A DNA stretch of 55,423 bases from a virus (Duplodnaviria; Caudoviricetes), in the IMG/VR virus record IMGVR_UViG_3300042892_000300, positions 1-55,423 of that record; one strand, 5' to 3'. This document shows positions 7,995 to 34,392 of the stretch, piece after piece. The position numbers and the translations under genes were made by a program. The notes under the pieces were generated by a model. It ran no database searches. It saw only the letters and a program-made list of their open reading frames with translations, and was not told the origin of the DNA. Position 1 is the first letter of the stretch; every line of letters starts with the position of its first letter.

Positions 7995-8020
7995 TCAGCG
8001 AAGCAACACCGCTTCGCTGA
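7995..8020 (+). other. Perfect 10-bp hairpin in early leader
   Basis: TCAGCGAAGC-AACACC-GCTTCGCTGA. Confidence 0.7.
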
Positions 8021-8047
8021 TGGGAACGGGACTACAAGCCCCTGTCC

Positions 8048-8059
8048 CGCTCTTTGACA
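8048..8059 (+). promoter_or_regulatory. boxA-like antitermination element
   Basis: CGCTCTTTGACA versus boxA consensus (T/C)GCTCTT(T)AACA; in the leader of the first early gene. Confidence 0.6.
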
Positions 8060-8091
8060 TCGCTAGGGGCTTTATAACGTGGAGCATTACC

Positions 8092-8385
8092 ATGGCTATG
8101 AAGCGCAATGAAGTTAAGGCCGAGTTCACCAAAATGCCTTTGGAGAACATGTCAGCCCCAGTCCGCCAAAAAGCGGATGCATGGTTGAAGGCTGATGCCG
8201 CCGCCAAGGAAGCCAAAAAGGCTTTTCAGGACACGGCATCAGCAGCGGCCCGCAAGGCGAAGGTGATTGGCGCAGGCCAGTATCTTGCCTTCGGGATGGG
8301 TTTCGGCGGTGTCCCCGCCTATACCGTCAAGGACGTGGAAGCTCCCAAGGCAACCACATCCGCCGCAACCGGCCCTAAGTTCTAG
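8092..8385 (+). CDS. First early gene, basic hypothetical protein (97 aa)
   Basis: GGAG at 8081-8084 before ATG 8092; Ala/Lys-rich. Confidence 0.7.
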   Translation: MAMKRNEVKAEFTKMPLENMSAPVRQKADAWLKADAAAKEAKKAFQDTASAAARKAKVIGAGQYLAFGMGFGGVPAYTVKDVEAPKATTSAATGPKF

Positions 8386-8399
8386 GTCGAAGATCAACC

Positions 8400-8423
8400 G
8401 GGAGGGAGCGCAAGCTCCCTCCC
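8400..8423 (+). other. GNRA-capped 10-bp hairpin
   Basis: GGGAGGGAGC-GCAA-GCTCCCTCCC. Confidence 0.7.
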
Positions 8424-8443
8424 AACTTGAAGGAAGGCGTATC

Positions 8444-8521
8444 ATGAAACACCTAGCAAACTTGACATCCATACTGGCTGTCCTGACTATCTTCGTTCTA
8501 CTCTGGGTCGCAACACCCTAA
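8444..8521 (+). CDS. 25-aa single-pass membrane peptide
   Basis: AAGGAAGG RBS, MKHLANLTSILAVLTIFVLLWVATP*. Confidence 0.5.
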   Translation: MKHLANLTSILAVLTIFVLLWVATP

Positions 8522-8530
8522 CTTGACACT

Positions 8531-8564
8531 ACCCCACTGGCTTCGGCTGGTGGGGTTTTTCTTT
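8531..8564 (+). terminator. Rho-independent terminator
   Basis: ACCCCACTGGC-TTCG-GCTGGTGGGGT then TTTTCTTT. Confidence 0.85.
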
Positions 8565-8698
8565 GTCTGGAGAAGATGTAAAGTTGTGTGTTGTCGCCTG
8601 CGGCTCCCATACGTCGGGGGTTTATAGCTATACATGGCGCTGCAACACGCGGGATTACTCTGAAATGGGGGGATGTAAGGTTGGTTTATACGTTGTAA

Positions 8699-9132
8699 TA
8701 TCAATGACTTACGGCGAAAACAGGGCAGTTTTATCTAGTTTATCTGTGGATTTGTGCATACACTAACATTACATTTGAAGTGTATAGTTCGGTGGGATGT
8801 CGAGGGAAACCAAGGGCTTAGCTTGTATGGTAAGGTTTAGTTTTATCTACTTTATCTGTTTTATACCCATTTTTAGAGAATGATTTCATGGCTTCGTGTG
8901 GCCCTTTTTCAAATTAAAAATTGCCTGTAAGCTTATAATTTCCTCACCACATCACCCCCGCGCGCGCTATAACTTCCAAAACCACAGATAAAATGTATAA
9001 AATGAACCATATCAGTGGCTTACCGACAGATAAAATAGATAAAATATCTAGTTTATCTAGTGTCAAGTTAGATAAAACTATAACCCCTTACAGTGGCATA
9101 CAGCAAAAAAACCCAGCAAAATCAACGGCTTG
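8699..9132. repeat. AT-rich non-coding control region with TTTATCT/AGATAAA repeats and IHF-consensus sites (candidate origin or packaging site)
   Basis: About 9 TTTATCT/AGATAAA copies in both orientations; WATCARN4TTR at 8699, 9010, 9120 and a 1-mismatch copy at 8808. Confidence 0.65.
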
Positions 9133-9142
9133 ACCCCCAAAC

Positions 9143-9171
9143 TTGACAAGCCCGACCCGGCGTGGCAGGAT
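9143..9171 (+). promoter_or_regulatory. Early sigma70-type promoter
   Basis: TTGACA-N17-CAGGAT with TG extended -10, upstream of 9216. Confidence 0.5.
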
Positions 9172-9215
9172 TTGGCTCTCGACCAACCCCAACATGTAAA
9201 ACGGAGTGAAGTGCA

Positions 9216-9497
9216 ATGTCACGGACCAAAACATATACCTCTTTCGCTGATCTCAACGACCAATATACACCGACCTATCATAACTTGACAGTACGTCCTC
9301 GTCGTCGGACTTACTTGATATCATCCGACGCTGTGTATGATTACAGCGTTGGCCACGAACTCGTTGTAGCTGACAGCGACAGCCCGTTCGATGGTTGTAT
9401 AGTTTCAGTACTGGACAAGTCGACCCTCAAGCGGCACGGCTATACCGGTCTGACCCTGAGCTACAACCTCGACCGTAAAGTGGAGATCAAGCTGTGA
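9216..9497 (+). CDS. Hypothetical protein
   Basis: 93 aa, GGAG RBS, GTGA overlap with next gene. Confidence 0.65.
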   Translation: MSRTKTYTSFADLNDQYTPTYHNLTVRPRRRTYLISSDAVYDYSVGHELVVADSDSPFDGCIVSVLDKSTLKRHGYTGLTLSYNLDRKVEIKL

Positions 9498-9757
9498 ACC
9501 GTACAATCGAACTGGCTATCGACCCCGACACCATGGTCTCTATCGCTGAGATCACTGGCAATCAGGAACTGTTCAACGCCATTGGCTATCTGAGCCAGTG
9601 GAACCTGCCGCTTGCCAAGGTTCGCCTCTTGGGTGGTGTCTATGACGGCAACCCCGAACTGACTGCTACCTACTGGCGGCACAGCACAGAGGGCGAACCC
9701 ATTGCCTATCAACTCGGTGCTATCTGGCACGGTGATCACTTCGGCTTCCACTCGTAG
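9494..9757 (+). CDS. Hypothetical protein
   Basis: 87 aa, GGAG RBS, ends ...GAIWHGDHFGFHS. Confidence 0.7.
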   Translation: MNRTIELAIDPDTMVSIAEITGNQELFNAIGYLSQWNLPLAKVRLLGGVYDGNPELTATYWRHSTEGEPIAYQLGAIWHGDHFGFHS

Positions 9758-9819
9758 TCGAAACCGGCCCAACAGCCGGTCTGTGGGTACTGACCATCCC
9801 ACACTGATGAGACAGGTCA
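9757..9819 (+). ncRNA. Hammerhead ribozyme, type II, with loop I pseudoknot
   Basis: GUC-GAAA-CCGGC(ccaaca)GCCGG-UC^-UGUGGG(uacugaccau)CCCACA-CUGAUGA-GAC-a-GGUCA: full catalytic core, three stems, UGACC/GGUCA pseudoknot; predicted cleavage after C9781. Confidence 0.92.
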
Positions 9820-9844
9820 ACTTAGCAACAGAGGAGGAAGCGTA

Positions 9845-10027
9845 ATGCGACTGTTCACCCTACGGCGTGGCCGTAAGGGACCACTTGTCGAAGATCAGTT
9901 CGGTGACCCCATCTACTTCGATAACAAGATGGACGCCAAAATCCTAAGGGATCGCTTCGGTGGCGACACCGTAGTGGCCCTTGGCCCTGACCACAAAAAC
10001 ACAAGGAGAGATACCAATGCGTGCTGA
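9845..10027 (+). CDS. Hypothetical protein
   Basis: 60 aa, strong AGAGGAGG RBS. Confidence 0.65.
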   Translation: MRLFTLRRGRKGPLVEDQFGDPIYFDNKMDAKILRDRFGGDTVVALGPDHKNTRRDTNAC

Positions 10028-11012
10028 ACTTCTCAAGGGAACGCTCAAGGCCCTCTATACCATCAACCGTACTGTCATCATTACTGGCCCTCCGGGCGGT
10101 GGTAAGACTACCATCGTCAAGGAAGTAGCTAAGGAACTCGATGTTCCTGTAGTCCTGCGTAACCCTGCACTCACTCCGGTCGAAGACTTCGGTGCCCCTG
10201 ATATGCTGGCTCCGGGTAAAGCGTTCGGCTACAAGATGCCTGATTGGTTCCCCTACAAGGGTAAGCCAGATACTGAGCGTGGTGGCATCCTGCTGTTCGA
10301 TGACCGTACTCAAGCCAGCCCTGATCACCAGAAGGCTATTGCCCATATCTGTCAGGCTCGTGATCTACATGGTGTACCTATGGCTGATGGCTGGCAGGTT
10401 GTCTCCACTGGTAACCGACAGTCTGACAGGGCCGGTGCTGGCCGCACTCTGAGCCACCTTGCCAACCGTGAGACCAACTTGGAGCTTGAGACTGACCTGA
10501 ATGACTCGACTAAGTGGATGCTTGACCATGGTGTCCGGCCAGAGGTTGTCAGTTTCCTACGGTTCCGTCCCGGTCTGTTGCATGACTTCGACCCACAGCG
10601 TGATGCCAATCCGTCACCGAGAGCATGGGTCGAAGGTGTGTCTGACATCCTCGGTGTGGTGCCACCAGAGGCAGAGTATGAGTGCTTCAAGGGTGCTGTC
10701 AGTGAAGGCCCAGCGGCAGAGTTCGTCGGGTTCATGCGGATTTACCGTAAGCTGCCCAACCCCGATGCTGTCCTGATGAACCCCGCTACGGCAGATGTAC
10801 CGACTGACCCGGCTACACTCTATGCCCTGTCTGGTGCCCTGTCCCACCGTGCTACTGACGGCAACTTCGAACGTGTCTGCATCTATGCTGAGCGTATGCC
10901 TCCAGAGTTCTCAGTGCTTACCATCTCGTCGGCAGTACGCAAAGACGCTGCACTGTGTGGCACTGCGGCGTTCACCAAGTGGTCGATCCAGCATCAAGAC
11001 ATCTTGTTCTAA
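10017..11012 (+). CDS. MoxR-like AAA+ ATPase
   Basis: Walker A GPPGGGKT, Walker B ILLFDD, STGNR sensor, LANR arginine finger, SPRAW; AAGGAG RBS favours ATG 10017. Confidence 0.85.
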   Translation: MRAELLKGTLKALYTINRTVIITGPPGGGKTTIVKEVAKELDVPVVLRNPALTPVEDFGAPDMLAPGKAFGYKMPDWFPYKGKPDTERGGILLFDDRTQASPDHQKAIAHICQARDLHGVPMADGWQVVSTGNRQSDRAGAGRTLSHLANRETNLELETDLNDSTKWMLDHGVRPEVVSFLRFRPGLLHDFDPQRDANPSPRAWVEGVSDILGVVPPEAEYECFKGAVSEGPAAEFVGFMRIYRKLPNPDAVLMNPATADVPTDPATLYALSGALSHRATDGNFERVCIYAERMPPEFSVLTISSAVRKDAALCGTAAFTKWSIQHQDILF

Positions 11013-11038
11013 ACCCATCAACCAAGCGGAGTACTACT

Positions 11039-11896
11039 ATGACTATGAAGCTCAACGACCGAGCATTGCTCGTATCCCTGTCTGTCTCTCAGTGGACAGC
11101 CCGTAAGCTCGACAAGAAGGCCACCAAAGATGTGGCCGATGCCAACAGGGCCAGCACCAGTGCAGGACGCTACAACAAGTCTCTGTTGCCTCTCAACGAT
11201 CTGTTGGCCCATGTCCACCAGAAGACCGGCATCATCAGGGACAAGTTCAGCAAGAACACCCTGCCATGGGGTGTCGACGGCACCCGTATCCTGCCCAGTG
11301 CAAACTACCTCCAGTTCATGACGGACTTCCGCAAGGAGAAGGGGGAGTGGCAATCACTGGTGAACACGTTCGTCAGTAACTACGACACACTGGTATCTGA
11401 GGCACAGCGTTGGCTTGGTGATCTCTACAACGAGGATGACTACCCATCCAAAGACCAGATCACCCAGAAGTTCAGTGTCGATATGGCGATCATGCCGGTA
11501 CCGACCGATGACTTCCGAGTGGCCCTGTCCAGTGAGGAACTGACACGTCTACAGGAGGAGCTTGGCCAGCGTATGGCGACGGTACAGCAGGAAGCTATGA
11601 CCGACTGTTGGAACCGACTGCACAAACATGTCCAGCATGTGGCAGAGAAGCTCGCTGACCCCAAGGCTATCTTCAGGGACAGCATGTTGGAAAATGCACA
11701 GGAGACCTGTGACCTGCTGACACGTCTCAATGTGACTGATGACCCCAACCTCGAAGCGATGCGGCAACAGGTGGAGGCCAAGCTGATCAGTCACCACCCT
11801 GATGCACTGCGCAACGACCCTGATCTGCGGCGCGACACTGCCGAGGAAGCGCGCAATATCATGGACGCTATGTCCATATTCATGGGAGCAAACTGA
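11039..11896 (+). CDS. Conserved helical phage protein (DUF3150-like) of the AAA/vWA triad
   Basis: WTARKLDK, LPW...G.RILP, IFRDS motifs; between ATPase and vWA genes. Confidence 0.6.
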   Translation: MTMKLNDRALLVSLSVSQWTARKLDKKATKDVADANRASTSAGRYNKSLLPLNDLLAHVHQKTGIIRDKFSKNTLPWGVDGTRILPSANYLQFMTDFRKEKGEWQSLVNTFVSNYDTLVSEAQRWLGDLYNEDDYPSKDQITQKFSVDMAIMPVPTDDFRVALSSEELTRLQEELGQRMATVQQEAMTDCWNRLHKHVQHVAEKLADPKAIFRDSMLENAQETCDLLTRLNVTDDPNLEAMRQQVEAKLISHHPDALRNDPDLRRDTAEEARNIMDAMSIFMGAN

Positions 11897-13047
11897 TGCA
11901 AGTTATGCCACAAAAGCCAGCGTCCACTGGCGATATCACTGCCCTTACCCGCCGCTTGGCCAAGGCCAAGACGAGTCTGATACTGGAGCATCCCTTTGTG
12001 GGTGCCGTAGCTATCAACATGCCGTTCATTCTGACCGACGATATCCCGGCTGCTGCTACCAATGGTAAGCGGGTACTGTTCAACCCCTCATACATCAGTG
12101 ACCTGACTGATGAGGAACTCAAGTTCCTCGTTGCACATGAGGTGTTTCACCCCATGATGAGCCACAATTTCCGGCGAGGCGGACGTGACCAACGTAAGTG
12201 GAACCGTGCTGCTGACTATGTCATCAACGAACTGCTGACACTGGAGGGTATCGGTAAGATGCCCAGCGGTGGCCTTCGGGACAGTCACATCTACAACGCA
12301 GGTAGTGGCACCAGTGACGGCATCTACAACATCCTCGAAGACGACCCCGGTGGTGGCGGTGGCAACAGTGGTGACGGTGATGCTTTCGATGAGTGCGAGG
12401 ATGCTGAAGGTGGCCCAGCAGAGCAGGCTCAAGCTGAGGCAGAGATGAAAATACAAGTAGCTCAGGCTGCACAAGCTGCCAAGATGATGGGCAAGATGTC
12501 GGCTAACATGCAGAGACTTGTTGACGAGGTGCTTCAGCCCAAGGTGGACTGGCGCGCTGTGCTGCAACGGTTCATTGAGAAGGCTCGTACTGACCAGCGT
12601 ACCTATGCTCGACCCAACCGTATTTTCGCGGCGCAGGGTTTATATCTGCCCAGTAAAACGGGTGAGGTGATGGGTGAACTACTGTTCGCAGTCGATTGCT
12701 CAGGCTCTATTGACCAACCTACACTCAACCAGTTTGCTGCCGAGATCAGGACCGTCAAGGATGACTGTCTACCGACACGTATACATGTAGTATACTTCGA
12801 CAGCGAGGTGTCACATCATGAGACCTATACCCCCGACGATGCGCTTGACATCAAGCCTCACGGTGGCGGTGGCACAGCGTTCAGCCCAGTGTTTCGGTAC
12901 GCTGAACAGCACGGCATTGACCCAGTAGCGTGTGTGTTTCTGACTGACTTATACTGTTCCGACTTCGGTGCCGCACCAGATTATCCGGTGTTGTGGGTAT
13001 CTAACGGGCGGGACAACGCCCCCTTCGGTGAAGTGGTAATGATGTGA
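11896..13047 (+). CDS. Metallopeptidase + vWA domain protein (DUF2201-like)
   Basis: AATNG, HEVFH zinc motif, WN.A.D..IN; MIDAS DCSGS, GGGGT, FLTD. Confidence 0.88.
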   Translation: MQVMPQKPASTGDITALTRRLAKAKTSLILEHPFVGAVAINMPFILTDDIPAAATNGKRVLFNPSYISDLTDEELKFLVAHEVFHPMMSHNFRRGGRDQRKWNRAADYVINELLTLEGIGKMPSGGLRDSHIYNAGSGTSDGIYNILEDDPGGGGGNSGDGDAFDECEDAEGGPAEQAQAEAEMKIQVAQAAQAAKMMGKMSANMQRLVDEVLQPKVDWRAVLQRFIEKARTDQRTYARPNRIFAAQGLYLPSKTGEVMGELLFAVDCSGSIDQPTLNQFAAEIRTVKDDCLPTRIHVVYFDSEVSHHETYTPDDALDIKPHGGGGTAFSPVFRYAEQHGIDPVACVFLTDLYCSDFGAAPDYPVLWVSNGRDNAPFGEVVMM

Positions 13048-13262
13048 GTGAAGACAAAGAGTTCGATGACCTACTAGAAGCAATCGGTGAGGCTTGCTCC
13101 GGGTACAAGTTATGTACAGTAATTGAAGCACTGGTATTAATACTTGCTGACTGTGGACGACAGACAGAGCTGTCACAGCAGGCTTTTACTGCGGACGTGT
13201 ACCAAAACATCAACGAAATCTACAATGAAATGGAGAATAACAATGGCAATAGTACGCATTAG
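13044..13262 (+). CDS. Small acidic hypothetical protein
   Basis: 72 aa, GTGA overlap. Confidence 0.55.
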   Translation: MSEDKEFDDLLEAIGEACSGYKLCTVIEALVLILADCGRQTELSQQAFTADVYQNINEIYNEMENNNGNSTH

Positions 13263-13875
13263 TCAAGAGCTTCGGAACGATATCATCCGGAACGCACGTA
13301 ACAAGTTTGATCCGGCTATTAAAGCCGCACAGGACAGCAAGCCAGAGGATAAGTACGGAGACTATATCTACGATAAAATCTGGGGGCCGTACCGCAAGCA
13401 GATGGAGGCACTACCCAAGGAGTTCTTTCAGTATAAAAACTCGATCCAAATCCGGAGTGTTGGTGAGGTTACGATGCCATTCATCACATCGTTTACGGAG
13501 TACCGCCCTATACCCCCCATTCCTGCGAACACACCCGTAAAGCATGACTACCCCGGTCAACCCTACTCACTGCTGGGCGACCCTGTATGGGATGTCATCA
13601 TGTTAGATGCCCGTGAGTGGAAGCATCGGTGCGATACAGTCGCTAATCAATGCAGAGACTTCATAGCTGGTGTTACTGCGGTACTGGATACCTTTACGAC
13701 ACTGGCTCCGGCACTCAAGGAGTGGCCACCGCTATGGGAACTGTTGCCAGAACATATCAAGGACCGGCATAAAGAAATCAAGGAACGAGTCAAGGCAGAC
13801 AGACCCGGCATTGATAAGGACAAACTTGGTGCCATGACAGGCGCACTTACTGCAATCAAACTTGGAGCAATGTAA
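13243..13875 (+). CDS. Hypothetical protein (possibly Nmad5-like)
   Basis: GGAG RBS before ATG 13243; C-terminal TTL..ALKEWP.LWELLP. Confidence 0.6.
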   Translation: MAIVRISQELRNDIIRNARNKFDPAIKAAQDSKPEDKYGDYIYDKIWGPYRKQMEALPKEFFQYKNSIQIRSVGEVTMPFITSFTEYRPIPPIPANTPVKHDYPGQPYSLLGDPVWDVIMLDAREWKHRCDTVANQCRDFIAGVTAVLDTFTTLAPALKEWPPLWELLPEHIKDRHKEIKERVKADRPGIDKDKLGAMTGALTAIKLGAM

Positions 13876-13876
13876 C

Positions 13877-14338
13877 ATGAGGAAGAGAGAAAAGATTATC
13901 CGGCTGCTTAGCGCGGACCCACAGATTTCATACAAAGAAGTAGCCAAGCAGGCAGGGTGCCATCTTAGCTACGTCTATGGAGTGGAGAAATCATGGCTCG
14001 AAGATGGCCCCGTAGAGGGGCATCAGCCTGACATGTTTGAGAGTGTTGGGCCGATTGATCGGGAGACACTCAACCTACTGACCGGTGGTAGCACCGACTA
14101 CTACAAGGCGCGCGTCGACCATCCCACGTCTGGCGGCGAGCGGTACATAGCAGAGTGCAACGACATCATCGAGGCGCTGCGCATGGAGAGCGACGTAGCC
14201 AATGTCTTCAAGGCAGCATGGCGTGTGGCTGCACTGCGGCAGGGTCGAGGCAAGCCGGGACAGGACAGCACCATCTATGATGGCGAGAAGATTGTGTTCT
14301 TCGGACAGCGCATCATTGCACGGGAGCAAGGCAAGTGA
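13877..14338 (+). CDS. N-terminal HTH fused to DUF3310-like domain
   Basis: SYKEVAKQAGCHLSYVY HTH; GGSTDYY...ECNDIIEAL...NVFKA.WR...D.EK. Confidence 0.55.
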   Translation: MRKREKIIRLLSADPQISYKEVAKQAGCHLSYVYGVEKSWLEDGPVEGHQPDMFESVGPIDRETLNLLTGGSTDYYKARVDHPTSGGERYIAECNDIIEALRMESDVANVFKAAWRVAALRQGRGKPGQDSTIYDGEKIVFFGQRIIAREQGK

Positions 14339-14511
14339 GGGTAACGTATCAGGTCCGCACTGCGGCAACCAACCGACTCATGTTTGTATCGGATGATCTC
14401 GGCATCGCTGAACGGCAAAGACAGTACAAACAGGAGCGGGTAGGGGTAGACTTCAAGCTGTTTCGCGTGGTCGAAACCGAGGAAGAAGTGCTTTACAATA
14501 ACGTAAGGTAA
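14335..14511 (+). CDS. Small hypothetical protein (58 aa)
   Basis: Read by hand: GTGA overlap, MRVTYQVRTAATNRLMF...EEVLYNNVR*. Confidence 0.55.
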   Translation: MRVTYQVRTAATNRLMFVSDDLGIAERQRQYKQERVGVDFKLFRVVETEEEVLYNNVR

Positions 14512-14548
14512 GGCTACAAACTACACCGAACAACAGGGGCACGGATGT

Positions 14549-16432
14549 ATGGACATCTATACGATTGATTTCGAAACGTACTATGGCCGGGAGTTCACGC
14601 TCTCCAAGCTCACAACTGAGTCATACATCCGTGACCCCCGCTTTGAGACCATTATGATGGGGGTCAAGAAGAACAACGGTCCGACCAAGTGGATACCCCG
14701 TCCGCTTGTTAAGGCGTTCCTCAAGGCCATCGACTTCAGGAAAGCAGCGATCCTCTGCCACAACACAGCGTTCGATGGGGCTATCCTATCGTGGCACTAT
14801 GGTGTGAGGCCCAAGCTGTGGCTGGATACCTTATCTATGGCGCGTCCGCTGCACAGTATGTCTGTAGGTGGTAGCCTCAAGGCACTGGCTCAGTACTACA
14901 AGCTGGGTGTCAAGGGTGACGAGGTCATCAACGCACTGGACAAACGCTATGAGGACTTCTCGAAGGAGGAACTGCATCGTTACGGGGAGTACTGTGTCAA
15001 CGATGTAGAGATCACATACAAACTCTGGCTCAAGCTAAAGAAGGTGTCCCCCTCAGGCGAGTTGCTAGTCATCGATCAGACATTACGTATGTTCACTGAA
15101 CCCAAGATCACACTCGACCGTAGTCTGTTGCTGCAACATCTCGGTGAGGTGCAGTCATCAAAGGCAAAGTTGTTAGAGCTTGTAGCCGAGTCCATGGGGA
15201 TGGGCGAGTCGTTCGACCCCGAAGCCCTCAAGCCTGTGTTGATGAGCAACAACAACTTTGCTGGTCTGTTAGAGACACTGGGTGTGGACCCACCTACTAA
15301 GGTCAGCGCCAAGACTGGCAAGGTAGCCTTCGCTTTTAGTAAGACAGACGCCGGGTTCACAGACTTGTTGGAGCATCCTGACGAGCGTGTCCGGGCAGCG
15401 GTTGAGGCACGGCTGGGTGTGAAGTCTACGTTGGAAGAGACACGGACCATGGCGTTCATTGGGATCGGTGAACGTGGGGCACTGCCTATCATGCTGAACT
15501 ACTACGGGGCACACACAGGCAGGTTCTCAGGGGGCGATAAGGTCAACCTTCAGAACTTACCAAGCCGGGGCAACACCACCATCAGGCGCGCACTCATGGC
15601 ACCTAAGGGTTCGATGCTCATTGCCTGCGACTCCTCGCAGATCGAGGCCCGCACCGTTGCGTGGCTGGCAGGGCAGGAGGATTTGCTGCAAGCGTTTCGC
15701 GAGGGGCGAGATGTCTACTCCGAGTTCGCCACCGATGTGTACGGCAGGGTCATAACTAAGGCAGACTACACTGAGAGATTTGTGGGTAAGACCTGCATCC
15801 TTGGGCTTGGCTACGGCATGGGTGCCGAGAAGTTCCAGCGGACACTGGCACTGGCTAAGATTGTGATCGATGAGAACGAGGCACAGCGTATCGTCAGGTT
15901 GTACCGGCAGAAGTACCACAAGATCGTGGCACTATGGCAGCTATGCGGGAACGCCTTGTCCGACATGGTGCAGGGGCGTGGCGGGACGATCAACGGTAAG
16001 TTGAACTACGACAACACCGGGATCAAGCTACCGAACACCATGAAGATTACCTACCCTGCGTTGCGGGCTACCAAGAGTGGGTTCGAGTACATCAACGACG
16101 CACGTACCTACCGCAAGTATGTCAAGGACCGGGTGCTTGGGAACCCAACTGACGACCTGCCATGGACCAATGTATATGGCGGGAAGACCGTTGAGAATCT
16201 GGTGCAAGCTCTGGCTGGCATCATTGTGAGAGGACAGATGGTAGAGATGAGTCTGTCTGGGTACTTTGTTGCGTTCCAAGTTCACGATGAGAATGTGGCC
16301 GTGGTCCCTACTGAAACGGTAGAGGCTGCTGAGGCTGACATCATCCGCATAATGTCCAAGCCTCCCGTGTGGGCACCAGATTTACCGGTGGCCTGTGAGG
16401 CTGGACATGCAATCAACTACGGGGACTGTTGA
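14549..16432 (+). CDS. polA: Family A DNA polymerase with 3'-5' exonuclease
   Basis: ExoI DFET, ExoII HNTAFD, ExoIII YCVND; TGRFSG..NLQN, motif A DSSQIE.R, motif B R..GK...LG.GYG, motif C VHDE. Confidence 0.95.
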   Translation: MDIYTIDFETYYGREFTLSKLTTESYIRDPRFETIMMGVKKNNGPTKWIPRPLVKAFLKAIDFRKAAILCHNTAFDGAILSWHYGVRPKLWLDTLSMARPLHSMSVGGSLKALAQYYKLGVKGDEVINALDKRYEDFSKEELHRYGEYCVNDVEITYKLWLKLKKVSPSGELLVIDQTLRMFTEPKITLDRSLLLQHLGEVQSSKAKLLELVAESMGMGESFDPEALKPVLMSNNNFAGLLETLGVDPPTKVSAKTGKVAFAFSKTDAGFTDLLEHPDERVRAAVEARLGVKSTLEETRTMAFIGIGERGALPIMLNYYGAHTGRFSGGDKVNLQNLPSRGNTTIRRALMAPKGSMLIACDSSQIEARTVAWLAGQEDLLQAFREGRDVYSEFATDVYGRVITKADYTERFVGKTCILGLGYGMGAEKFQRTLALAKIVIDENEAQRIVRLYRQKYHKIVALWQLCGNALSDMVQGRGGTINGKLNYDNTGIKLPNTMKITYPALRATKSGFEYINDARTYRKYVKDRVLGNPTDDLPWTNVYGGKTVENLVQALAGIIVRGQMVEMSLSGYFVAFQVHDENVAVVPTETVEAAEADIIRIMSKPPVWAPDLPVACEAGHAINYGDC

Positions 16433-16433
16433 T

Positions 16434-16619
16434 ATGATAACGATACTTATTATGAACCTGCTTGATACCCTCTCCGGGGTAGACCCCCCGGTGGAGCCAA
16501 CACGTAGGGACAAACGCCGCTTTAACCTGCGGCAGTCCATCATGGTGACGGCGGCTATATTGCTAGTCCTCGCTTTGGCCTCCGCACCATGGGTGCCGGT
16601 CGTAATTCCATACAGATAA
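16434..16619 (+). CDS. Small membrane protein
   Basis: 61 aa from ATG 16434; hydrophobic IMVTAAILLVLALASAPWVPVVI. Confidence 0.5.
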   Translation: MITILIMNLLDTLSGVDPPVEPTRRDKRRFNLRQSIMVTAAILLVLALASAPWVPVVIPYR

Positions 16620-19025: not shown

Positions 19026-19328
19026 ATGGGGGCAGCGACACCTGAAGGCCGCGTGAAACGTAGGCTCACTGAGATGCTGAAGCGCCGCAAGGTCTGGTAT
19101 TTTTTCCCCGGTAACAACGGGTTCGGAAAATCTGGACTACCCGATATCGTCGCCATCATACGGGGGCGGTTCGTCGGGATCGAAGTGAAGGCCGACTCGA
19201 CTAAGAAACCCACTGCACTTCAGTGGAAGATAAGTCGGGAGATCAAGGAGGCCGGTGGCATGTGGTTCCTTGTTTATGATGACGCCACCATTGCCGAGGT
19301 AGAGGAATATATCTGTGCTTGTGATTGA
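19026..19328 (+). CDS. VRR-NUC nuclease (Holliday junction resolvase-like)
   Basis: TPEG.VK, G.SGLPD, GIEVKA...KPTALQ. Confidence 0.88.
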   Translation: MGAATPEGRVKRRLTEMLKRRKVWYFFPGNNGFGKSGLPDIVAIIRGRFVGIEVKADSTKKPTALQWKISREIKEAGGMWFLVYDDATIAEVEEYICACD

Positions 19329-20880
19329 GAAGGCCAAGGCGCTCGCGCTGAAGCTGAGTAACCCCAACCGGGTACTCGATACGATACCGACTGCACGGCG
19401 CATGACTGTGCGGGGTATGGATATCGTCGTCACGCCACACCGGCTCGATGAGGTGCGCGTCCTCAACAACATGGGTATTAAGGCACCCTCTCCCATCATG
19501 CACTACTACGACTGGCCGGGTCGTTTCATTCCGTTCGACCACCAGAAGGAGACGGCAGCGTTCCTTACGCTACATACCAAGGGGCTGGTGCTCAACGACA
19601 TCGGGACAGGTAAGACGCAGAGCGCCCTGTGGGCAGCGGACTACCTCATCAGGACCAAGCAGGTGAAGAAGGTACTGATCCTCTCCCCGCTCTCTACACT
19701 GGAACGTGTCTGGGGTGATGCGATCTTCATGGGGTTCCCCGACCGTAAGTTTGTTGTGATGCATGGCACGGCTGAGCGCAGGCGCAGGTTGATGCAGGAG
19801 GACGTGGACTTCTACATCATTAACCACGACGGGTTTCCTATCATCGCTGACGACGCGCACGGCATGTTCGATCTGGTCATCGTCGATGAGGCAGCAACGC
19901 TACGCAATCCCAGTACTCAGAGGTTCAAGCAGTTCCGTAAGTGGACCGTAGCCAACCCAGAGGTACGTCTGTGGTTGATGACCGGCACCCCGACCCCCAA
20001 CGATCCGACTGATGCGTGGTCACTAGCCAAGCTAGTCGATAGTCCCAACTGCACCAAGACATTCACAGCGTTCCGTGAACAGGTGATGACCAAGATCGGG
20101 CAGTGGAAGTTCATCCCCCGGGCTGATGCCATGGAGACAGTGAGCCATATCTTGCAGCCGTCAGTGCGGTACACCCGGGACGAGTGCTTCGACCTACCTG
20201 AGACTATCATCCAGACACGTCAGGTGGACCTGACACCGGAGCAGAAGAAGTACTACGGGGCCATGCTCAAGGATTTGGTAGTCGAGGTGTCCAAGGTATC
20301 GGCTTCTGGTGGCACCATCAGTGCCGTCAACGAGGCGGTCAAGGTACAGAAGCTCGTACAGATAGCTTGTGGTGTGGCCTACGGTGACGATGGCCAGAAC
20401 ATCGAACTCGACGCTTCACCCCGGGTGAAGCTGGTAAAGGAACTGATCGAGGAGGTAGGCGAGAAGGTCATAGTCTTCGTGCCGCTGACAGGTACGCTAC
20501 ACATGTTGGAGCGCGAGTTGTCGAAGCACTGGTCTGTAGCTGTGGTCAACGGCGCGGTGTCGTCGTCCAAACGCAACGTGATCTTCAAGGACTTTCAAGA
20601 CAGCAAGGAGCCACATGTCCTGATTGCCCACCCCGGCACCATGGCACACGGGCTGACGTTGACTACGGCATCGACCATCATTTGGTACGGCCCGGTCAAC
20701 AGCAACGAGACTTATGTGCAGGCCAACGGGCGCATCGAACGTATTGGGAAGAACAAGACTTCGAACCTGATCCATATCGAGGCGACCGCACTTGAGCATA
20801 AGATGTACGACCGATTGAGGAACAAGCAGGGGCTACAAGGGCTGCTGCTGGACCTGATCCAAGAACAAACGAGGAGGTAG
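19315..20880 (+). CDS. SNF2-family helicase
   Basis: GTGKT, IVDEA, MTGTP, HGLTLT, QANGRIERIG. Confidence 0.9.
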   Translation: MLVIEKAKALALKLSNPNRVLDTIPTARRMTVRGMDIVVTPHRLDEVRVLNNMGIKAPSPIMHYYDWPGRFIPFDHQKETAAFLTLHTKGLVLNDIGTGKTQSALWAADYLIRTKQVKKVLILSPLSTLERVWGDAIFMGFPDRKFVVMHGTAERRRRLMQEDVDFYIINHDGFPIIADDAHGMFDLVIVDEAATLRNPSTQRFKQFRKWTVANPEVRLWLMTGTPTPNDPTDAWSLAKLVDSPNCTKTFTAFREQVMTKIGQWKFIPRADAMETVSHILQPSVRYTRDECFDLPETIIQTRQVDLTPEQKKYYGAMLKDLVVEVSKVSASGGTISAVNEAVKVQKLVQIACGVAYGDDGQNIELDASPRVKLVKELIEEVGEKVIVFVPLTGTLHMLERELSKHWSVAVVNGAVSSSKRNVIFKDFQDSKEPHVLIAHPGTMAHGLTLTTASTIIWYGPVNSNETYVQANGRIERIGKNKTSNLIHIEATALEHKMYDRLRNKQGLQGLLLDLIQEQTRR

Positions 20881-22743: not shown

Positions 22744-25599
22744 ATGGATACAATTACATTTCTCACTCGGGTTCTCCCCGCACAAGGGTTCTACGCCAGC
22801 GCCAACCTCACTGATCAGGGGATGCGCCACGGGTATTACTCCACGGTGGAAGACCTCACTAAGTCGGTCGCTAGCATAAGCCAGCGTGGTGGCAACGCCT
22901 ATTACGCAGTCTCCGCGTTCACCCAGAAGGGCAAGCGCACACAGGACAACGTGCGTGTTGTCAAGACCCTCATGCTGGACATCGACTGCGGCCCAGATAA
23001 GCCCTACCCCACATGGCGCGATGGTCTGGCGGCGTTCAGTGCGTTCGTCACGACGCTCGGCCTACCCAAGCCTATGGTGGTGTTCTCCGGCAACGGCCTG
23101 CACATCTATTGGGTACTAACCGAAGAGCTTGCACCTGCACAGTGGAAGCCCCTTGGGCTGGCGCTCAAGGCTGCGGCTGCTGATCTCGGGCTGGCAATGG
23201 ATAACTCTGTTCCTGCCGACAGTGCCCGCATCTTGCGGCCAGTGGGTACCATCAATCTCAAGGGTGGCAAGGAAGTCAAGCTGCTGCTTGATGCGCCGCC
23301 GGTCTCACCGGACCTGATGCGCGCCAAGTTGGCCCAGTATATCGGTGTCGAGAGGGTTTCTACAGAAACAACGGCTCGACAAAGACCTACCAGTATGTTG
23401 GCACAAGCTCTCGCCGTAGTGCAGGAGTTCCCCGAGGCTGATGCTGATGTCCTCATTGCCAAGTGCCAGCAGTTGCGCTGGGGTGTAGAGAACCAGAAGG
23501 ATGTAGACGAGCCGTTCTGGTATGCGATGCTGGGTATCGCTGCGTACTGCACCGACCCGGAAGCGACAGCCGTTGCATGGTCAAGCCAGCACCCCAACTA
23601 CGACCAGACCAAGACGCTCCAGAAGATGGAGCATTGGAAGGTATCGGTCAGTGGGCCAGCGACATGCAAACGGTTTCACGAGGAGCGACCCAAGGGGTGC
23701 ACGGGGTGCCGGTTCCAGAACAAGATCACAGCCCCGACACAGATCGGTGCACAGCACAAGGAAGTTGATATCGCGGTCACTGCACCCGATAGTATCGGTG
23801 CTGCCGTGCCTCTGCCGAAGAGCTACAAGCGTACCGATACCGGCATCAAGCAGACTGTGGACGGAACCGATATCGACATTAGCCCGTTCGATATCTACCC
23901 CACCGGGTACGGCAGGGACGAGGCACTGGGCTACGAGACAGTGCGCTACCACTGGGATCGTAAACATTCGGGTTGGCAGGAGTTAGCTTTACGCCAAGCA
24001 TACCTCACAGACACACGTCTGCGGGAGTTCACCACGGCTATCGCGGATCAGGGCATCGTCTTGAAAACCGAGAACCAAACAAAGATGTTCCAGTTTATGC
24101 TCCGCTCATACATGGACAAGCTGCGCGAGATGCGCGCGATGACGAACCTCTACAACAGCATGGGTTGGAAGGATGACTACCGCCAGTTCGTGCACGGTAA
24201 CACGCTCTACCGCCGCCTAGACGATGGCTCCGTGGCGAAGGAGTCTATCGCACTGTCAAGCACAAGCCAGCGGTTGGGCGGTGAACTCTTCACTTCGATG
24301 GGTAACGCGCAAGCATGGTCTGATTTCACTGCGCTGCTTGAGACAGCCAATATGCCAGCGCATATGTTCTCTATAGGTCTGGGCCTCGCGGCTCCCCTGC
24401 TGGTGTTCACCGGTCTCAACGGTATGACAGTCTCGTTCTGCGGACCATCAGGGGCGGGGAAGACCTTGGCTCAGTTGTTGCAGCAGTCTCTTTGGGGCGA
24501 CCCACAGAAGTTACACTTCGCGTCCAAGTTCACACCGAACAGCCTGTATAATCGGCTCGGTCTGTACAGCAATCTACCTATGACTATCGATGAGACTACG
24601 CTCACCGACCCAAAAGAAGTAGGTGACTTCCTGTACATGGTCACGCAGGGGCGGGACAAAGCCCGACTGACACGCGGTGCTGAGGAGCGCGAGGTCAAGA
24701 CATGGGCGACCATAGTTTCAACCTCAACGAATATCGCGTGGGCCACAAAGCTGGCTGGTCTCAGCAGCGCCACAGACGCACAGCTTATGCGTTTGCTTGA
24801 GGTTTCCATGGACGTGCACCCGGTGTTTGCCAACAACACATCGGTGGGGCGTAAGATGTTTCAGTTCGTCACCACCAACTACGGATTGATTGGCCCGCTG
24901 TTCGCAGAGCATATGCTGAAGATGGGGCCAGTCGCGATCAAGGCACTGATCGATGACGCGATGGCGACATTCGGCGCACGGTACAAGGCTGAGTTCAGCG
25001 GCGAGGAGCGGTACTGGGAAGTCACCATCGTGCTGACAGACTTGGCTCTGCGCATTGCGTATGAACAAGGGTGGATCAAGTTCAACCCAGCCAAGGCTAT
25101 CGAGTGGGTGCTTGAGCAGACCGGCATCATCCGCCGCAACATCGAAGCCAACAAGATGGATACCTACGATATCTTGTCCGAGTACCTTAACGAGAACACA
25201 CGGACAGCTTTGACGGTGATGCACACTCTCGGCCAGCCGCCAGTGCCGCTGTTTAATCGTATGCCACACGGGGAACTACGTATTCGTTACGACGTGATGC
25301 GCAAGACATCGACTGGTCTCTTCGACCACGGCACCCTGACCATTGACCGCACCCACATCAAACAGTGGCTGGCCATGCACAACGCAGACTACCGCCAGAT
25401 GCTGAGAGACTTTGAGACCGAGGGTGTCCTTGTTCCGCTGAAGCATGACAAGGCGTACCTGAGCAAAGGCACGGACATCAAGATGGGCCAGTGCTACGCC
25501 ATCGCCCTGAACCTAAACCACCCGCGCCTCCGGGGTATCTTGGAGGAGGCTGACCAAGCCTTTGACACGCAAGTGCTTGGCCAGTTGAAAGTCGTCTGA
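22744..25599 (+). CDS. AEP/RepB-type primase fused to DUF927 and P-loop helicase
   Basis: LDID, SGNGLH.YW, RILRP.GT; Cys cluster (C..C); Walker A GPSGAGKT, Walker B TIDE. Confidence 0.85.
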   Translation: MDTITFLTRVLPAQGFYASANLTDQGMRHGYYSTVEDLTKSVASISQRGGNAYYAVSAFTQKGKRTQDNVRVVKTLMLDIDCGPDKPYPTWRDGLAAFSAFVTTLGLPKPMVVFSGNGLHIYWVLTEELAPAQWKPLGLALKAAAADLGLAMDNSVPADSARILRPVGTINLKGGKEVKLLLDAPPVSPDLMRAKLAQYIGVERVSTETTARQRPTSMLAQALAVVQEFPEADADVLIAKCQQLRWGVENQKDVDEPFWYAMLGIAAYCTDPEATAVAWSSQHPNYDQTKTLQKMEHWKVSVSGPATCKRFHEERPKGCTGCRFQNKITAPTQIGAQHKEVDIAVTAPDSIGAAVPLPKSYKRTDTGIKQTVDGTDIDISPFDIYPTGYGRDEALGYETVRYHWDRKHSGWQELALRQAYLTDTRLREFTTAIADQGIVLKTENQTKMFQFMLRSYMDKLREMRAMTNLYNSMGWKDDYRQFVHGNTLYRRLDDGSVAKESIALSSTSQRLGGELFTSMGNAQAWSDFTALLETANMPAHMFSIGLGLAAPLLVFTGLNGMTVSFCGPSGAGKTLAQLLQQSLWGDPQKLHFASKFTPNSLYNRLGLYSNLPMTIDETTLTDPKEVGDFLYMVTQGRDKARLTRGAEEREVKTWATIVSTSTNIAWATKLAGLSSATDAQLMRLLEVSMDVHPVFANNTSVGRKMFQFVTTNYGLIGPLFAEHMLKMGPVAIKALIDDAMATFGARYKAEFSGEERYWEVTIVLTDLALRIAYEQGWIKFNPAKAIEWVLEQTGIIRRNIEANKMDTYDILSEYLNENTRTALTVMHTLGQPPVPLFNRMPHGELRIRYDVMRKTSTGLFDHGTLTIDRTHIKQWLAMHNADYRQMLRDFETEGVLVPLKHDKAYLSKGTDIKMGQCYAIALNLNHPRLRGILEEADQAFDTQVLGQLKVV

Positions 25600-34064: not shown

Positions 34065-34071
34065 GAGTTCT

Positions 34072-34392
34072 CTACCCTCTACCAATCACGACGTGCCAAT
34101 GGGGACCAGTAGCATAGCTGACGGGGTCGTTGACTTCGTCCCGCCCTTCAATAACCCGGTACCCTGCTTGTTGTATAGACCCAACGTAGTCCGCGAACGT
34201 CATGCCCGGGATAGGCGCAATGTCCACGGCGGCAGCGGTCTTGACGTGGTACGAGTCTGGGTTCTTCTGACCCAGCGCACTACCTGCTGCACGAGTAGTC
34301 TGTGTAATGCGAGCGCCCGGGAACAACTGCTTGATGACAGCCCCGCCATTGGCGACAGGCGTACCCGGTTCCTTGAAGCGCGTGGCGCTAGG
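34072..34392 (-). CDS. M15-family (Hedgehog/DD-peptidase fold) peptidoglycan peptidase domain; start uncertain, probably reached by +1 frameshift
   Basis: R...SYH......VD...GPHWHV zinc ligands; no in-frame ATG before the first zinc ligands; frame overlaps the end of 34388..36106. Confidence 0.7.
   Translation of the reverse strand, partial: PSATRFKEPGTPVANGGAVIKQLFPGARITQTTRAAGSALGQKNPDSYHVKTAAAVDIAPIPGMTFADYVGSIQQAGYRVIEGRDEVNDPVSYATGPHWHVVIGRG

What the first reader, a model, noticed from the sequence alone, without database searches (positions are those of the whole stretch)
9757..9819. Pseudoknotted type II hammerhead ribozyme between early genes
Seen: GUC(9757-59)/GAC(9811-13) stem II, GAAA, stem III CCGGC/GCCGG, GUC cleavage triplet 9779-81, stem I UGUGGG/CCCACA, CUGAUGA (9804-10), and loop I UGACC complementary to GGUCA (9815-19). 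It overlaps the upstream stop codon and ends about 10 nt before the next RBS. Known: type II hammerheads with this pseudoknot occur between phage genes, but their role is unresolved. Inference: self-cleavage separates the AAA/vWA/replication message, with a 5'-OH end, from the first two genes, possibly doing the job host RNase III does for T7 early mRNA.
Basis: partly seen in the sequence, partly recalled or inferred. Interest (0 to 1): 0.75.

Follow-up and report, generated by a model that had tools for sequence, protein, structure and literature searches.

The report
Hammerhead ribozyme between phage early genes
A genuine self-cutting hammerhead RNA of an already described type fills the gap between two early genes of an uncultured lake phage and most likely cuts the early message in two, which is an ordinary arrangement for phages.

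Summary
Window 9756-9821 (+) is the only Rfam match in the window: Hammerhead_II, 38.8 bits against a gathering score of 37.

Related uncultured phages carry 1-3 such ribozymes in the same early region, always on the coding strand. Covariation is strong in stems I, II and III and in the pseudoknot: 88.8% of cells pair against 67.0% in shuffles, and 17 of 21 pairs change on both sides.

Each copy runs from the upstream stop codon to just before the next ribosome-binding site. The element is patchy: 13 of 63 relatives with enough upstream DNA have one. At the same junction, more distant relatives have an intrinsic terminator, a plain hairpin or nothing. Its two edges are also break points of gene-cassette gain and loss.

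Best reading: constitutive self-cleavage after C9781 separates the two upstream genes from the AAA/VWA/replication message. Cleavage itself is untested, and no RNA run was listed.

This kind was described by Perreault et al. 2011, and this scan has noted it often on other DNA. It is a new member of a known kind.

The parts
9494..9757 (+). Upstream 87-aa ORF (p87, no family). Its TAG stop (9755-57) overlaps the first two ribozyme nucleotides.
   Evidence: ORF list; no Pfam or PHROG hit; homologues in 21 viral loci.
9756..9821 (+). Type II hammerhead ribozyme, full Rfam model span
   Evidence: RF02276, 38.8 bits against gathering 37, model positions 1-66 of 66; 67.8 bits with own clade model R1.
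9757..9759 (+). Stem II, 3' strand (GUC); pairs with 9811-9813 (GAC)
   Evidence: The middle pair covaries across relatives: UA 10, CG 8, AU 2.
9760..9763 (+). Core G12 A13 A14 plus A15.1 (GAAA); A9763 pairs with U9780
   Evidence: GAAA is present in all 22 distinct relatives' copies: 21 in the first parse, and L094 once its long stem III insert is recognised.
9764..9779 (+). Stem III hairpin: CCGGC / loop CCAACA / GCCGG
   Evidence: present in the minimum-energy fold in all four contexts; 3-5 pair types at positions 2-6.
9780..9781 (+). U16.1 and C17; predicted cleavage between 9781 and 9782
   Evidence: Position relative to the Rfam consensus; UC in 21 of 22 distinct copies and UA in 1. Cleavage was not measured.
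9782..9803 (+). Stem I hairpin: UGUGGG / 10-nt loop UACUGACCAU / CCCACA
   Evidence: all 8 model pairs of stem I change on both sides among relatives.
9804..9810 (+). Core C3-A9 (CUGAUGA)
   Evidence: CUGAUGA or CUGACGA in all copies.
9811..9813 (+). Stem II, 5' strand (GAC)
9815..9819 (+). 3' tail GGUCA; forms a 5-bp pseudoknot with loop I UGACC (9791-9795)
   Evidence: Most relatives have UGGCU/AGCCA or UGGU/GCCA instead. 4 of 5 pseudoknot pairs change on both sides, and the pseudoknot was not part of the model used for the alignment.
9818..9844 (+). Relic of the 3' end of a gene that is absent here but present in the closest relative; it carries the RBS GAGGAGG (9831-37). The deletion joint is at about 9818-9821.
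   Evidence: Alignment with both sides of L082; lake DNA contigs branch at 9818.
9845..10027 (+). First downstream ORF (60 aa, no family), conserved before the AAA gene in relatives
10017..11012 (+). AAA ATPase, first large gene of the downstream message
   Evidence: Pfam PF00004 over its cut-off; 129 relatives in viral contigs.

Best explanation
Window 9756-9821 encodes a functional type II hammerhead ribozyme inside a polycistronic early transcript of a 55-kb uncultured freshwater phage.

Inferred mechanism. Once transcribed, the RNA folds into stems I and III plus a 3-bp stem II, held in the active shape by the 5-bp loop I/3'-tail pseudoknot. It then cuts itself after C9781.

Inferred products.
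- The upstream piece carries the 93-aa and 87-aa genes. It ends 24 nt after the intact stop codon, in the GC-rich stem III hairpin with a 2',3'-cyclic phosphate.
- The downstream piece carries the 60-aa ORF, the AAA ATPase, DUF3150, the VWA-like protein and the replication genes. It starts with a 5'-OH, followed at once by the stem I hairpin with its pseudoknot, then a free ribosome-binding site.
- Only the 3-bp stem II holds the two pieces together, so they part.

Inferred role. The element uncouples the stability and translation of the two gene blocks without a host nuclease. This is the job RNase III sites do in T7 early mRNA (the T7 case is recalled, not checked here).

Shown: the motif, its conservation and covariation, and its stop-to-RBS placement. 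Inferred: cleavage in vivo and its effect on the messages.
For: 1. Rfam match over the gathering score, with every core nucleotide canonical.
2. RF02276 matches at E <= 0.01 in 15 of 50 and 5 of 44 related virus records, and over the cut-off in 10 of 50 and 5 of 44. My clade model finds 29 copies (21 distinct rows) in 100 sources, all on the coding strand.
3. Covariation: 88.8% of cells pair against 67.0 +/- 1.5 in shuffles (0 of 500 shuffles reach it). 17 of 21 pairs change on both sides. Versions slid by 1-3 columns pair only 34-44%. The pseudoknot helix, which was not in the model, changes on both sides at 4 of 5 pairs.
4. Placement: in 20 of 21 sites an open frame's stop codon ends from 1 nt inside to 9 nt before the ribozyme, and a start codon follows 0-23 nt after it.
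5. No terminator-like site on the + strand between 8556 and 11200, so one transcript across the ribozyme is plausible.
6. Directly after the p87 homologue, 9 of 21 loci have the ribozyme. Five more distant ones have a GC hairpin plus a U-run (a terminator) and one has an 8-9 bp hairpin, which fits an RNA-end function at this junction.
7. Four lake DNA runs show no variant inside the ribozyme, while variants lie in the flanks.
8. Perreault et al. 2011 showed in vitro, and in E. coli, cleavage of comparable clustered prophage hammerheads. They also showed that the pseudoknot is needed for speed (abstract and passages).
Against: - No cleavage assay exists and no RNA run was listed for this phage, so in vivo cutting is unproven.
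- The element is dispensable. Only 13 of 63 relatives with at least 2.4 kb upstream of the AAA gene have any copy. L090/L091 have the same flanking genes joined directly, without it.
- Nearest-neighbour folding of the 66 nt is not better than shuffles (z = -1.03). This is expected, because stem II is short and pseudoknots are not modelled, so it gives no support either way.
- The alignment used for counting stems I-III was fitted to the model structure, which inflates the percentage paired.
- The benefit of cleavage (stability, uncoupling) is inferred from general RNA-decay knowledge, not from data on this phage. Its host and that host's RNases are unknown.
Confidence: 0.62

Rival explanations
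1. Cassette-boundary element. The ribozyme persists mainly because it travels with, or promotes, exchange of small early-gene cassettes. Its conserved sequence and its paralogous copies would act as DNA-level recombination linkers. RNA cleavage would be secondary, or would only serve to make any newly inserted gene independently expressible.
For: - The window equals its closest relative L082 minus a cargo of about 0.95 kb and two genes, removed exactly at the ribozyme's 3' edge.
- Lake DNA contigs branch at 9756 and at 9818. One variant has 587 other letters in place of the ribozyme.
- The genes after the ribozyme differ among relatives.
- Copies within one genome share near-identical stem III sequences: L023 copies 1 and 2, and L028 copies 2 and 3.
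- The distribution is patchy.
Against: Compensatory changes in all helices and an invariant catalytic core show selection on the RNA fold, not only on a DNA sequence. The conserved stretches are short (7-9 nt), which is poor substrate for homologous recombination between different phages. Intergenic spacers are break points in mosaic phages in any case.
Confidence: 0.17
2. Conditional switch. Cleavage is gated by translation of the upstream gene or by conditions such as Mg2+. A ribosome terminating on the overlapping stop codon would cover stem II, the GAAA core and half of stem III. The ribozyme would then time the shut-off of the first two genes or the onset of the replication block, rather than cutting constitutively.
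For: The stop codon overlaps or abuts the ribozyme in 20 of 21 sites. In the window only, 9741-9755 can pair with the RBS region 9830-9842 (-22.2 kcal/mol, reached by 3% of shuffles). Perreault et al. 2011 raise regulated cleavage for phage hammerheads (discussion passage).
Against: The flank/RBS pairing is not conserved: it is no better than shuffles in the other 17 sites tested. The pseudoknot type is the one linked to fast constitutive cleavage. Stop-codon overlap is equally explained by genome compaction. No ligand-binding or alternative conserved fold was seen.
Confidence: 0.1
3. Chance match or inactive relic with no present function.
For: The bit score is only 1.8 above the gathering score, and the element is absent from most relatives.
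Against: The single-family E-value is 4.8e-8 with 0 hits in 14 control genomes. The core is canonical. Covariation is seen in 17 of 21 pairs. All 30 descriptor hits are on the coding strand and none on the other. No variants lie inside it in four lake runs.
Confidence: 0.04

Closest known systems
Type II hammerhead ribozymes with a loop I/3'-tail pseudoknot, clustered between genes of prophages and phages (Perreault et al. 2011, PMC3088659; Rfam RF02276)
   Same: Same circular permutation (stems I and III closed, stem II open and only 3 bp), same invariant core, and the same pseudoknot between loop I and the nucleotides just after stem II. The setting also matches: intergenic, between phage genes whose identity is not constant, with 1-3 copies flanking single genes in relatives.
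   Different: - The pseudoknot sequence in this window (UGACC/GGUCA in a 10-nt loop) differs from the Rfam consensus and from most relatives (UGGCU/AGCCA).
- The host genome is an uncultured, apparently complete 55-kb lake phage, not a prophage.
- Added here: an orthologous-junction comparison (ribozyme, terminator, hairpin or nothing) and the coincidence of both ribozyme edges with insertion/deletion joints.
- I did not see the paper's supplements, so I cannot say whether this clade is in its Dataset S1.
RNase III processing sites between the early genes of phage T7 (recalled from general knowledge; not checked in a paper here)
   Same: What it works like: a structured intercistronic element that cuts a polycistronic early transcript into separate messages and leaves a hairpin at the 3' end of the upstream message.
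   Different: The cut is made by the RNA itself, not by a host protein. The ends would be a 2',3'-cyclic phosphate and a 5'-OH instead of a 3'-OH and a 5'-phosphate. There is no sequence or structural relation. The functional equivalence is inference only.
Engineered ribozyme insulators placed before ribosome-binding sites (RiboJ-type parts; recalled, not checked here)
   Same: A hammerhead directly upstream of an RBS that removes the upstream RNA context and leaves a hairpin at the new 5' end.
   Different: This is a natural element of different topology (type II, not a type III satellite-RNA derivative), with its own pseudoknot tertiary contact.

Membership tests
Hammerhead ribozyme, type II (Rfam RF02276) | Score at or above the curated gathering score of the family model | tested here: met
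   38.8 bits against 37, full-length match to model positions 1-66 of 66; E = 4.8e-8 for the single family.
Hammerhead ribozyme, type II (Rfam RF02276) | Invariant core: C3 U4 G5 A6 N7 G8 A9, G12 A13 A14, the A15.1-U16.1 pair, and H17 at the cleavage site (core list as in Perreault et al. 2011 methods) | tested here: met
   CUGAUGA 9804-10; GAA 9760-62; A9763-U9780; C9781.
Hammerhead ribozyme, type II (Rfam RF02276) | Three helices around the core, with paired positions directly next to the core (N10.1-N11.1, N1.1-N2.1) | tested here: met
   Stem I 6 bp (U9782-A9803 next to the core), stem II 3 bp (G9811-C9759 next to the core), stem III 5 bp plus A-U. Stems I and III appear in the minimum-energy fold.
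Hammerhead ribozyme, type II (Rfam RF02276) | Type II topology: stems I and III closed by loops, stem II open | tested here: met
   Element order GUC-GAAA-hairpin III-UC-hairpin I-CUGAUGA-GAC.
Hammerhead ribozyme, type II (Rfam RF02276) | Tertiary contact: a pseudoknot of 4 or more bp between loop I and the nucleotides just 3' of stem II | tested here: met
   UGACC 9791-95 / GGUCA 9815-19, 5 bp. Of 22 distinct copies, 17 have runs of 4 or more bp. 4 of 5 pseudoknot pairs change on both sides.
Hammerhead ribozyme, type II (Rfam RF02276) | Helices supported by compensatory changes in relatives | tested here: met
   17 of 21 pairs change on both sides; covariation score 0.595 against 0.206 in shuffles and 0.066-0.163 when slid. 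Caveat: the alignment was fitted to the model for stems I-III.
Hammerhead ribozyme, type II (Rfam RF02276) | Site-specific self-cleavage giving a 2',3'-cyclic phosphate and a 5'-OH | not testable with these tools
Clustered gene-flanking phage hammerheads (Perreault et al. 2011) | Intergenic, on the coding strand, flanking single genes or short gene blocks in phage DNA | tested here: met
   Stop-to-RBS placement in 20 of 21 sites. Three copies flank single genes in L023 and in L028/L029. All copies are on the coding strand.

The most novel reading that the evidence does not exclude
The hammerhead is a portable 'cistron punctuation' module with two proposed properties.
- At the RNA level it is interchangeable with an intrinsic terminator or a stabiliser hairpin at the same gene junction. 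That would point to RNA 3'/5'-end formation as its selected function.
- At the DNA level its two edges are the preferred joints at which early-gene cassettes are gained and lost. Any gene dropped in behind it would then be expressed at once as its own message.

If so, this lake-phage clade would be a natural system for testing what bacterial and phage hammerheads are for. It contains isogenic-like variants with the ribozyme, with a terminator, with a hairpin, or with nothing.
Probability: 0.25. Interest if true: 0.55.

Novelty: new member of a known kind. Interest (0 to 1): 0.3.

Why it matters
The biological role of the hundreds of bacterial and phage hammerheads is still called hypothetical in the 2019 review read here (PMC6765202, passage).

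This locus does not change what is known about the ribozyme itself. Its clade does offer natural comparisons at one gene junction: ribozyme, terminator, hairpin, direct coupling, and ribozyme with or without a following gene cassette. Those comparisons could turn the mRNA-processing hypothesis into a direct experiment. Taken alone, the finding is a well-supported but ordinary annotation.

Tried and rejected
1. RNA evidence. The look-up of sequencing runs listed 24 DNA holders, all lake or freshwater metagenomes, and no RNA holder. Expression and the cut site therefore could not be examined.

2. Conserved anti-RBS helix. In the window, 9741-9755 can pair with the RBS region (-22.2 kcal/mol; 3% of shuffles do as well). 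In the 17 other ribozyme sites tested, the flank pairing is no better than shuffles (fraction 0.19-0.89). I rejected it as a family feature.

3. Ribozyme class switching. Rfam at gathering threshold found nothing in 20 hammerhead-less related loci (136,618 bases), out of the roughly 50 such loci I held.

4. Thermodynamic support. The z-scores of the folds are not significant, so I did not use them.

5. Kinship to cultured phages.
- Megablast of 8000-16500 against the phage collection found no match.
- tblastn with the AAA ATPase gave only hits below 60% identity, to phages of many hosts.
- The 2827-aa protein has no PDB match and no informative Pfam match.
- No phage RNA polymerase was identified, so I make no claim about which polymerase transcribes the region.

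6. Function of flanking and cargo proteins. The 93-, 87- and 60-aa ORFs have no family. Neither do most genes next to ribozymes in relatives; one matches phrog_5162, of unknown function.

7. MAFFT alignments A1 and A2 misplace stem III and the long-stemmed copies. I used a covariance-model alignment and an end-anchored parse instead. In that parse, helices are extended only while they pair, so 100% pairing is by construction and only the variety of pair types counts. My cross-control for the pseudoknot (own mean 4.3 bp, cross mean 3.5 bp) discriminates poorly, because most copies share one pseudoknot type.

8. Literature. Three searches turned up no paper with functional data on phage type II hammerheads after 2011. 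I read only passages of PMC3088659 and PMC6765202, and supplements are closed. Dataset S1 of Perreault et al. may already list members of this clade.

Full report
**Observation.**
- stem II: GUC 9757-59 with GAC 9811-13;
- core: GAAA 9760-63;
- stem III: CCGGC 9764-68 / GCCGG 9775-79 around a CCAACA loop;
- U9780 C9781 as positions 16.1 and 17;
- stem I: UGUGGG 9782-87 / CCCACA 9798-9803 around a 10-nt loop;
- core: CUGAUGA 9804-10;
- a 5-bp complement between loop I UGACC (9791-95) and GGUCA (9815-19).

The TAG stop of the 87-aa ORF (9494-9757) overlaps the first two ribozyme nucleotides. The RBS GAGGAGG (9831-37) and the ATG at 9845 follow.

Rfam cmscan of the whole window, both strands, 4227 families, returns one match over threshold. 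It is Hammerhead_II (RF02276) at 9756-9821 +, 38.8 bits against a gathering score of 37, E = 2e-4, covering model positions 1-66 of 66. Searched as a single family the E-value is 4.8e-8, and 14 control genomes give no match. The window is a whole IMG/VR virus record of 55,423 bases, rated 100% complete.

**Context.** The + strand from about 8100 carries small genes that end at a terminator-like hairpin at 8531-8556. An AT-rich repeat region follows. Then come ORFs of 93 aa (9216-9497) and 87 aa (9494-9757), the ribozyme, and these downstream genes:

| Gene | Coordinates |
|---|---|
| 60-aa ORF | 9845-10027 |
| AAA ATPase | 10017-11012 |
| DUF3150 protein | ends at 11896 |
| DUF2201 metallopeptidase/VWA-like protein | 11896-13047 |
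| DNA polymerase A | 14549-16432 |
| helicase | 19315-20880 |
| primase/helicase | 22744-25599 |

No terminator-like site is predicted on the + strand between 8556 and 11200, so a transcript running through the ribozyme is plausible. The structural genes (terminase, portal/adaptor, fibres) are on the other strand. I found no phage RNA polymerase. There is no close cultured relative. DNA holders are lake and freshwater metagenomes.

**Relatives and covariation.** The AAA ATPase and the 87-aa protein retrieved 101 related loci from viral contigs.
- RF02276 matched at E <= 0.01 in 15 of 50 and 5 of 44 of those records. It matched over the gathering score in 10 of 50 and 5 of 44. Three records had three copies each.
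- A clade-specific covariance model, built from 14 copies, found 29 copies in 100 sources (646,458 bases, both strands). All were on the coding strand.
- An independent descriptor scan required the core motifs, stem I of at least 5 bp, a 3-bp stem II and closure of stem III. Run on the window plus 101 loci, both strands, it found 30 sites, again all on the coding strand. It also recovered one copy (L094) with a 61-nt stem III insert.

Twenty-two distinct copies were parsed. All keep CUGAUGA or CUGACGA and U-H at the cleavage site. GAAA is kept in 21 of them in the first parse, and in L094 as well once its insert is recognised.

On the model alignment with the pseudoknot added:

| Measure | Observed | Control |
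|---|---|---|
| Cells forming standard pairs | 88.8% | 67.0 +/- 1.5% in shuffles (0 of 500 reach it); 34-44% when partners are slid 1-3 columns |
| Pairs changing on both sides | 17 of 21 | 11.5 +/- 1.5 in shuffles (0 of 500 reach it) |
| Covariation score | 0.595 | 0.206 in shuffles |

- Stem II's middle pair is UA in 10, CG in 8 and AU in 2 distinct rows.
- All 8 stem I pairs change on both sides.
- The pseudoknot helix was not in the model, so the alignment was not fitted to it. It changes on both sides at 4 of 5 pairs.

Two caveats apply. Stems I-III were counted on an alignment fitted to the model. In addition, the sequences are related, so shuffle counts are not probabilities. The window's pseudoknot (UGACC/GGUCA) differs from the majority (UGGCU/AGCCA or UGGU/GCCA) by compensated changes.

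**Architecture.** A start codon opening a frame of at least 40 codons follows 0-23 nt after the model end (20 codons to the locus end in one case, L087). Two of the upstream frames are cut by the locus edge, and some automatically chosen starts may be alternative in-frame starts. The ribozyme thus fills the intercistronic spacer. In L023 and L028/L029, three copies flank single genes just upstream of the AAA gene. The flanked genes have no known family apart from one PHROG of unknown function.

**Distribution and the orthologous junction.** Of 63 loci with at least 2.4 kb upstream of the AAA gene, 13 have at least one copy:

| AAA identity to the window | Loci with a copy |
|---|---|
| 80% or more | 2 of 6 |
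| 70-80% | 5 of 14 |
| 65-70% | 6 of 26 |
| below 65% | 0 of 17 |

Directly after the p87 homologue the 21 loci divide as follows:
- 9 have the ribozyme. In one of these (L093) an extra 67-aa ORF comes first.
- 2 (L090, L091) join the same downstream gene directly through an RBS.
- 1 (L097) has no notable hairpin in the short gap before the next start codon.
- 1 (L085) has an 8-9 bp hairpin without a U-run.
- 3 (L094-L096) have weak or no hairpins.
- 5 more distant ones (L098-L102) have a GC-rich hairpin followed by a U-run, that is, an intrinsic terminator.

No other Rfam family appears in 20 hammerhead-less loci.

**Insertion/deletion joints.** The closest relative is L082, whose p87 is 100% identical by tblastn. 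Up to the pseudoknot tail its ribozyme is identical to the window's. It then carries about 0.95 kb with two genes before the 60-aa ORF. The window joins the ribozyme's last nucleotides (about 9818-9821) directly to the last codons of the second of these genes, which supply the RBS.

In four lake DNA runs, contigs branch at 9756 and at 9818. One loose end at 9818 reads like the cargo gene's 3' end. One low-depth contig carries 587 other letters between 9756 and 9818 instead of the ribozyme. No variant lies inside the ribozyme, whereas variants occur at 9748, 9895, 10244 and 10253. These are assembled contigs, so they show presence only.

**Mechanism.**
- Shown: a canonical, selected hammerhead fold on the coding strand, filling the spacer between cistrons.
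- Inferred: it cleaves after C9781. The upstream message keeps its stop codon and ends in the stem III hairpin with a cyclic phosphate. The downstream message begins with a 5'-OH and the stem I hairpin, whose loop stays paired to the 3' tail, so both pseudoknot strands are in the same product. An unpaired RBS follows (one search shows stems I and III in the minimum-energy fold in every context).
- Only the 3-bp stem II links the products, so they should separate.
- Hairpins at the new ends, and a 5'-OH, are expected from general knowledge of bacterial RNA decay (recalled) to slow exonucleases and 5'-end-dependent RNase E attack.
- A terminator or hairpin at the same junction in relatives fits a role in making or protecting RNA ends.
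- I put 0.62 on this whole statement. I rate the identification as a genuine hammerhead much higher, at about 0.95.

**Rivals.**
- A cassette-boundary or recombination role (0.17) is suggested by the joints and the patchiness, but it cannot explain the RNA-level covariation.
- A translation-gated or condition-gated switch (0.10) is suggested by the stop-codon overlap. The only candidate regulatory pairing is confined to the window.
- Chance or a dead relic (0.04) is disfavoured by everything above.

**Comparison with what is known.** Perreault et al. 2011 (PMC3088659; abstract and passages read) described natural type II hammerheads and their loop I/3'-tail pseudoknot. [quoted passage not shown] They proposed that long phage transcripts are processed into single-gene or operon-length mRNAs, and they demonstrated cleavage in vitro and in E. 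coli for other examples. The 2019 review PMC6765202 (passage) still calls this role a suggestion.

All sequence-level membership criteria are met here; catalysis could not be tested. This scan has noted the same kind many times on other DNA: 601 notes hold the search words, and several follow-ups named the same closest known. The finding is therefore a new member of a known kind.

**Verdict.** Novelty is low. Interest is 0.3.

Noticed in passing
L094:2498-2608 (+): A hammerhead of the same type whose stem III carries a 61-nt hairpin segment, with a 2+6 bp stem interrupted by an AA/AA internal loop. The 5' strand of that stem is RBS-like (AAGGAGGG). It is followed in the loop by a 6-codon mini-ORF (ATG...TAA). 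The Rfam-style models aligned it as if GAAA were missing. It lies before the gene preceding p87, not after p87.
   Followed up: partly
L023:1016-1487 and L028:1583-2791: Ribozyme copies within one phage share near-identical stem III and core stretches: L023 copies 1 and 2, and L028 copies 2 and 3. Their stem I sequences differ. This suggests duplication of the element within a genome.
   Followed up: no
window 9756 and 9818 (run X7): A low-depth lake contig joins 9728-9756 to 9818-9847 through 587 other letters. In that variant something else replaces the ribozyme between the same two genes. The letters were not shown.
   Followed up: no
window 9741-9755 with 9830-9842: The last codons of the 87-aa gene are complementary to the RBS region of the next gene (duplex -22.2 kcal/mol; 3% of shuffles do as well). 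This is not seen in 17 related sites, so it is probably chance.
   Followed up: yes
window 8531-8556 and 8570-9215: A strong terminator-like hairpin with a U-run ends the first small + strand gene block. A 0.65-kb AT-rich stretch follows, with repeated TTATCT/AGATAAA words and several AACTTGACA words, before the 93-aa gene. It may be a promoter or origin region.
   Followed up: no
window 25602-34085 (-): A 2827-aa ORF has no PDB match and no informative Pfam match. Its last 500 or so residues match the C-terminus of a 3431-position PHROG of unknown function.
   Followed up: partly
window 11896-13047 (+): Annotation conflict. Pfam calls this protein DUF2201_N metallopeptidase plus a VWA-like DUF2201 domain (E = 6.7e-46 and 1.6e-26). 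The matching PHROG (phrog_1314, E = 6e-97) is labelled HNH endonuclease.
   Followed up: no
L082:3341-4290 and homologues in L084, L090, L093, L017: The variable cargo next to the ribozyme consists of a protein of about 120 aa with a conserved YVVYSYG-HWPL stretch (no family) and a protein of about 195 aa in phrog_5162 (unknown function). In L017/L030 the first of these lies upstream of the ribozyme instead of downstream.
   Followed up: partly
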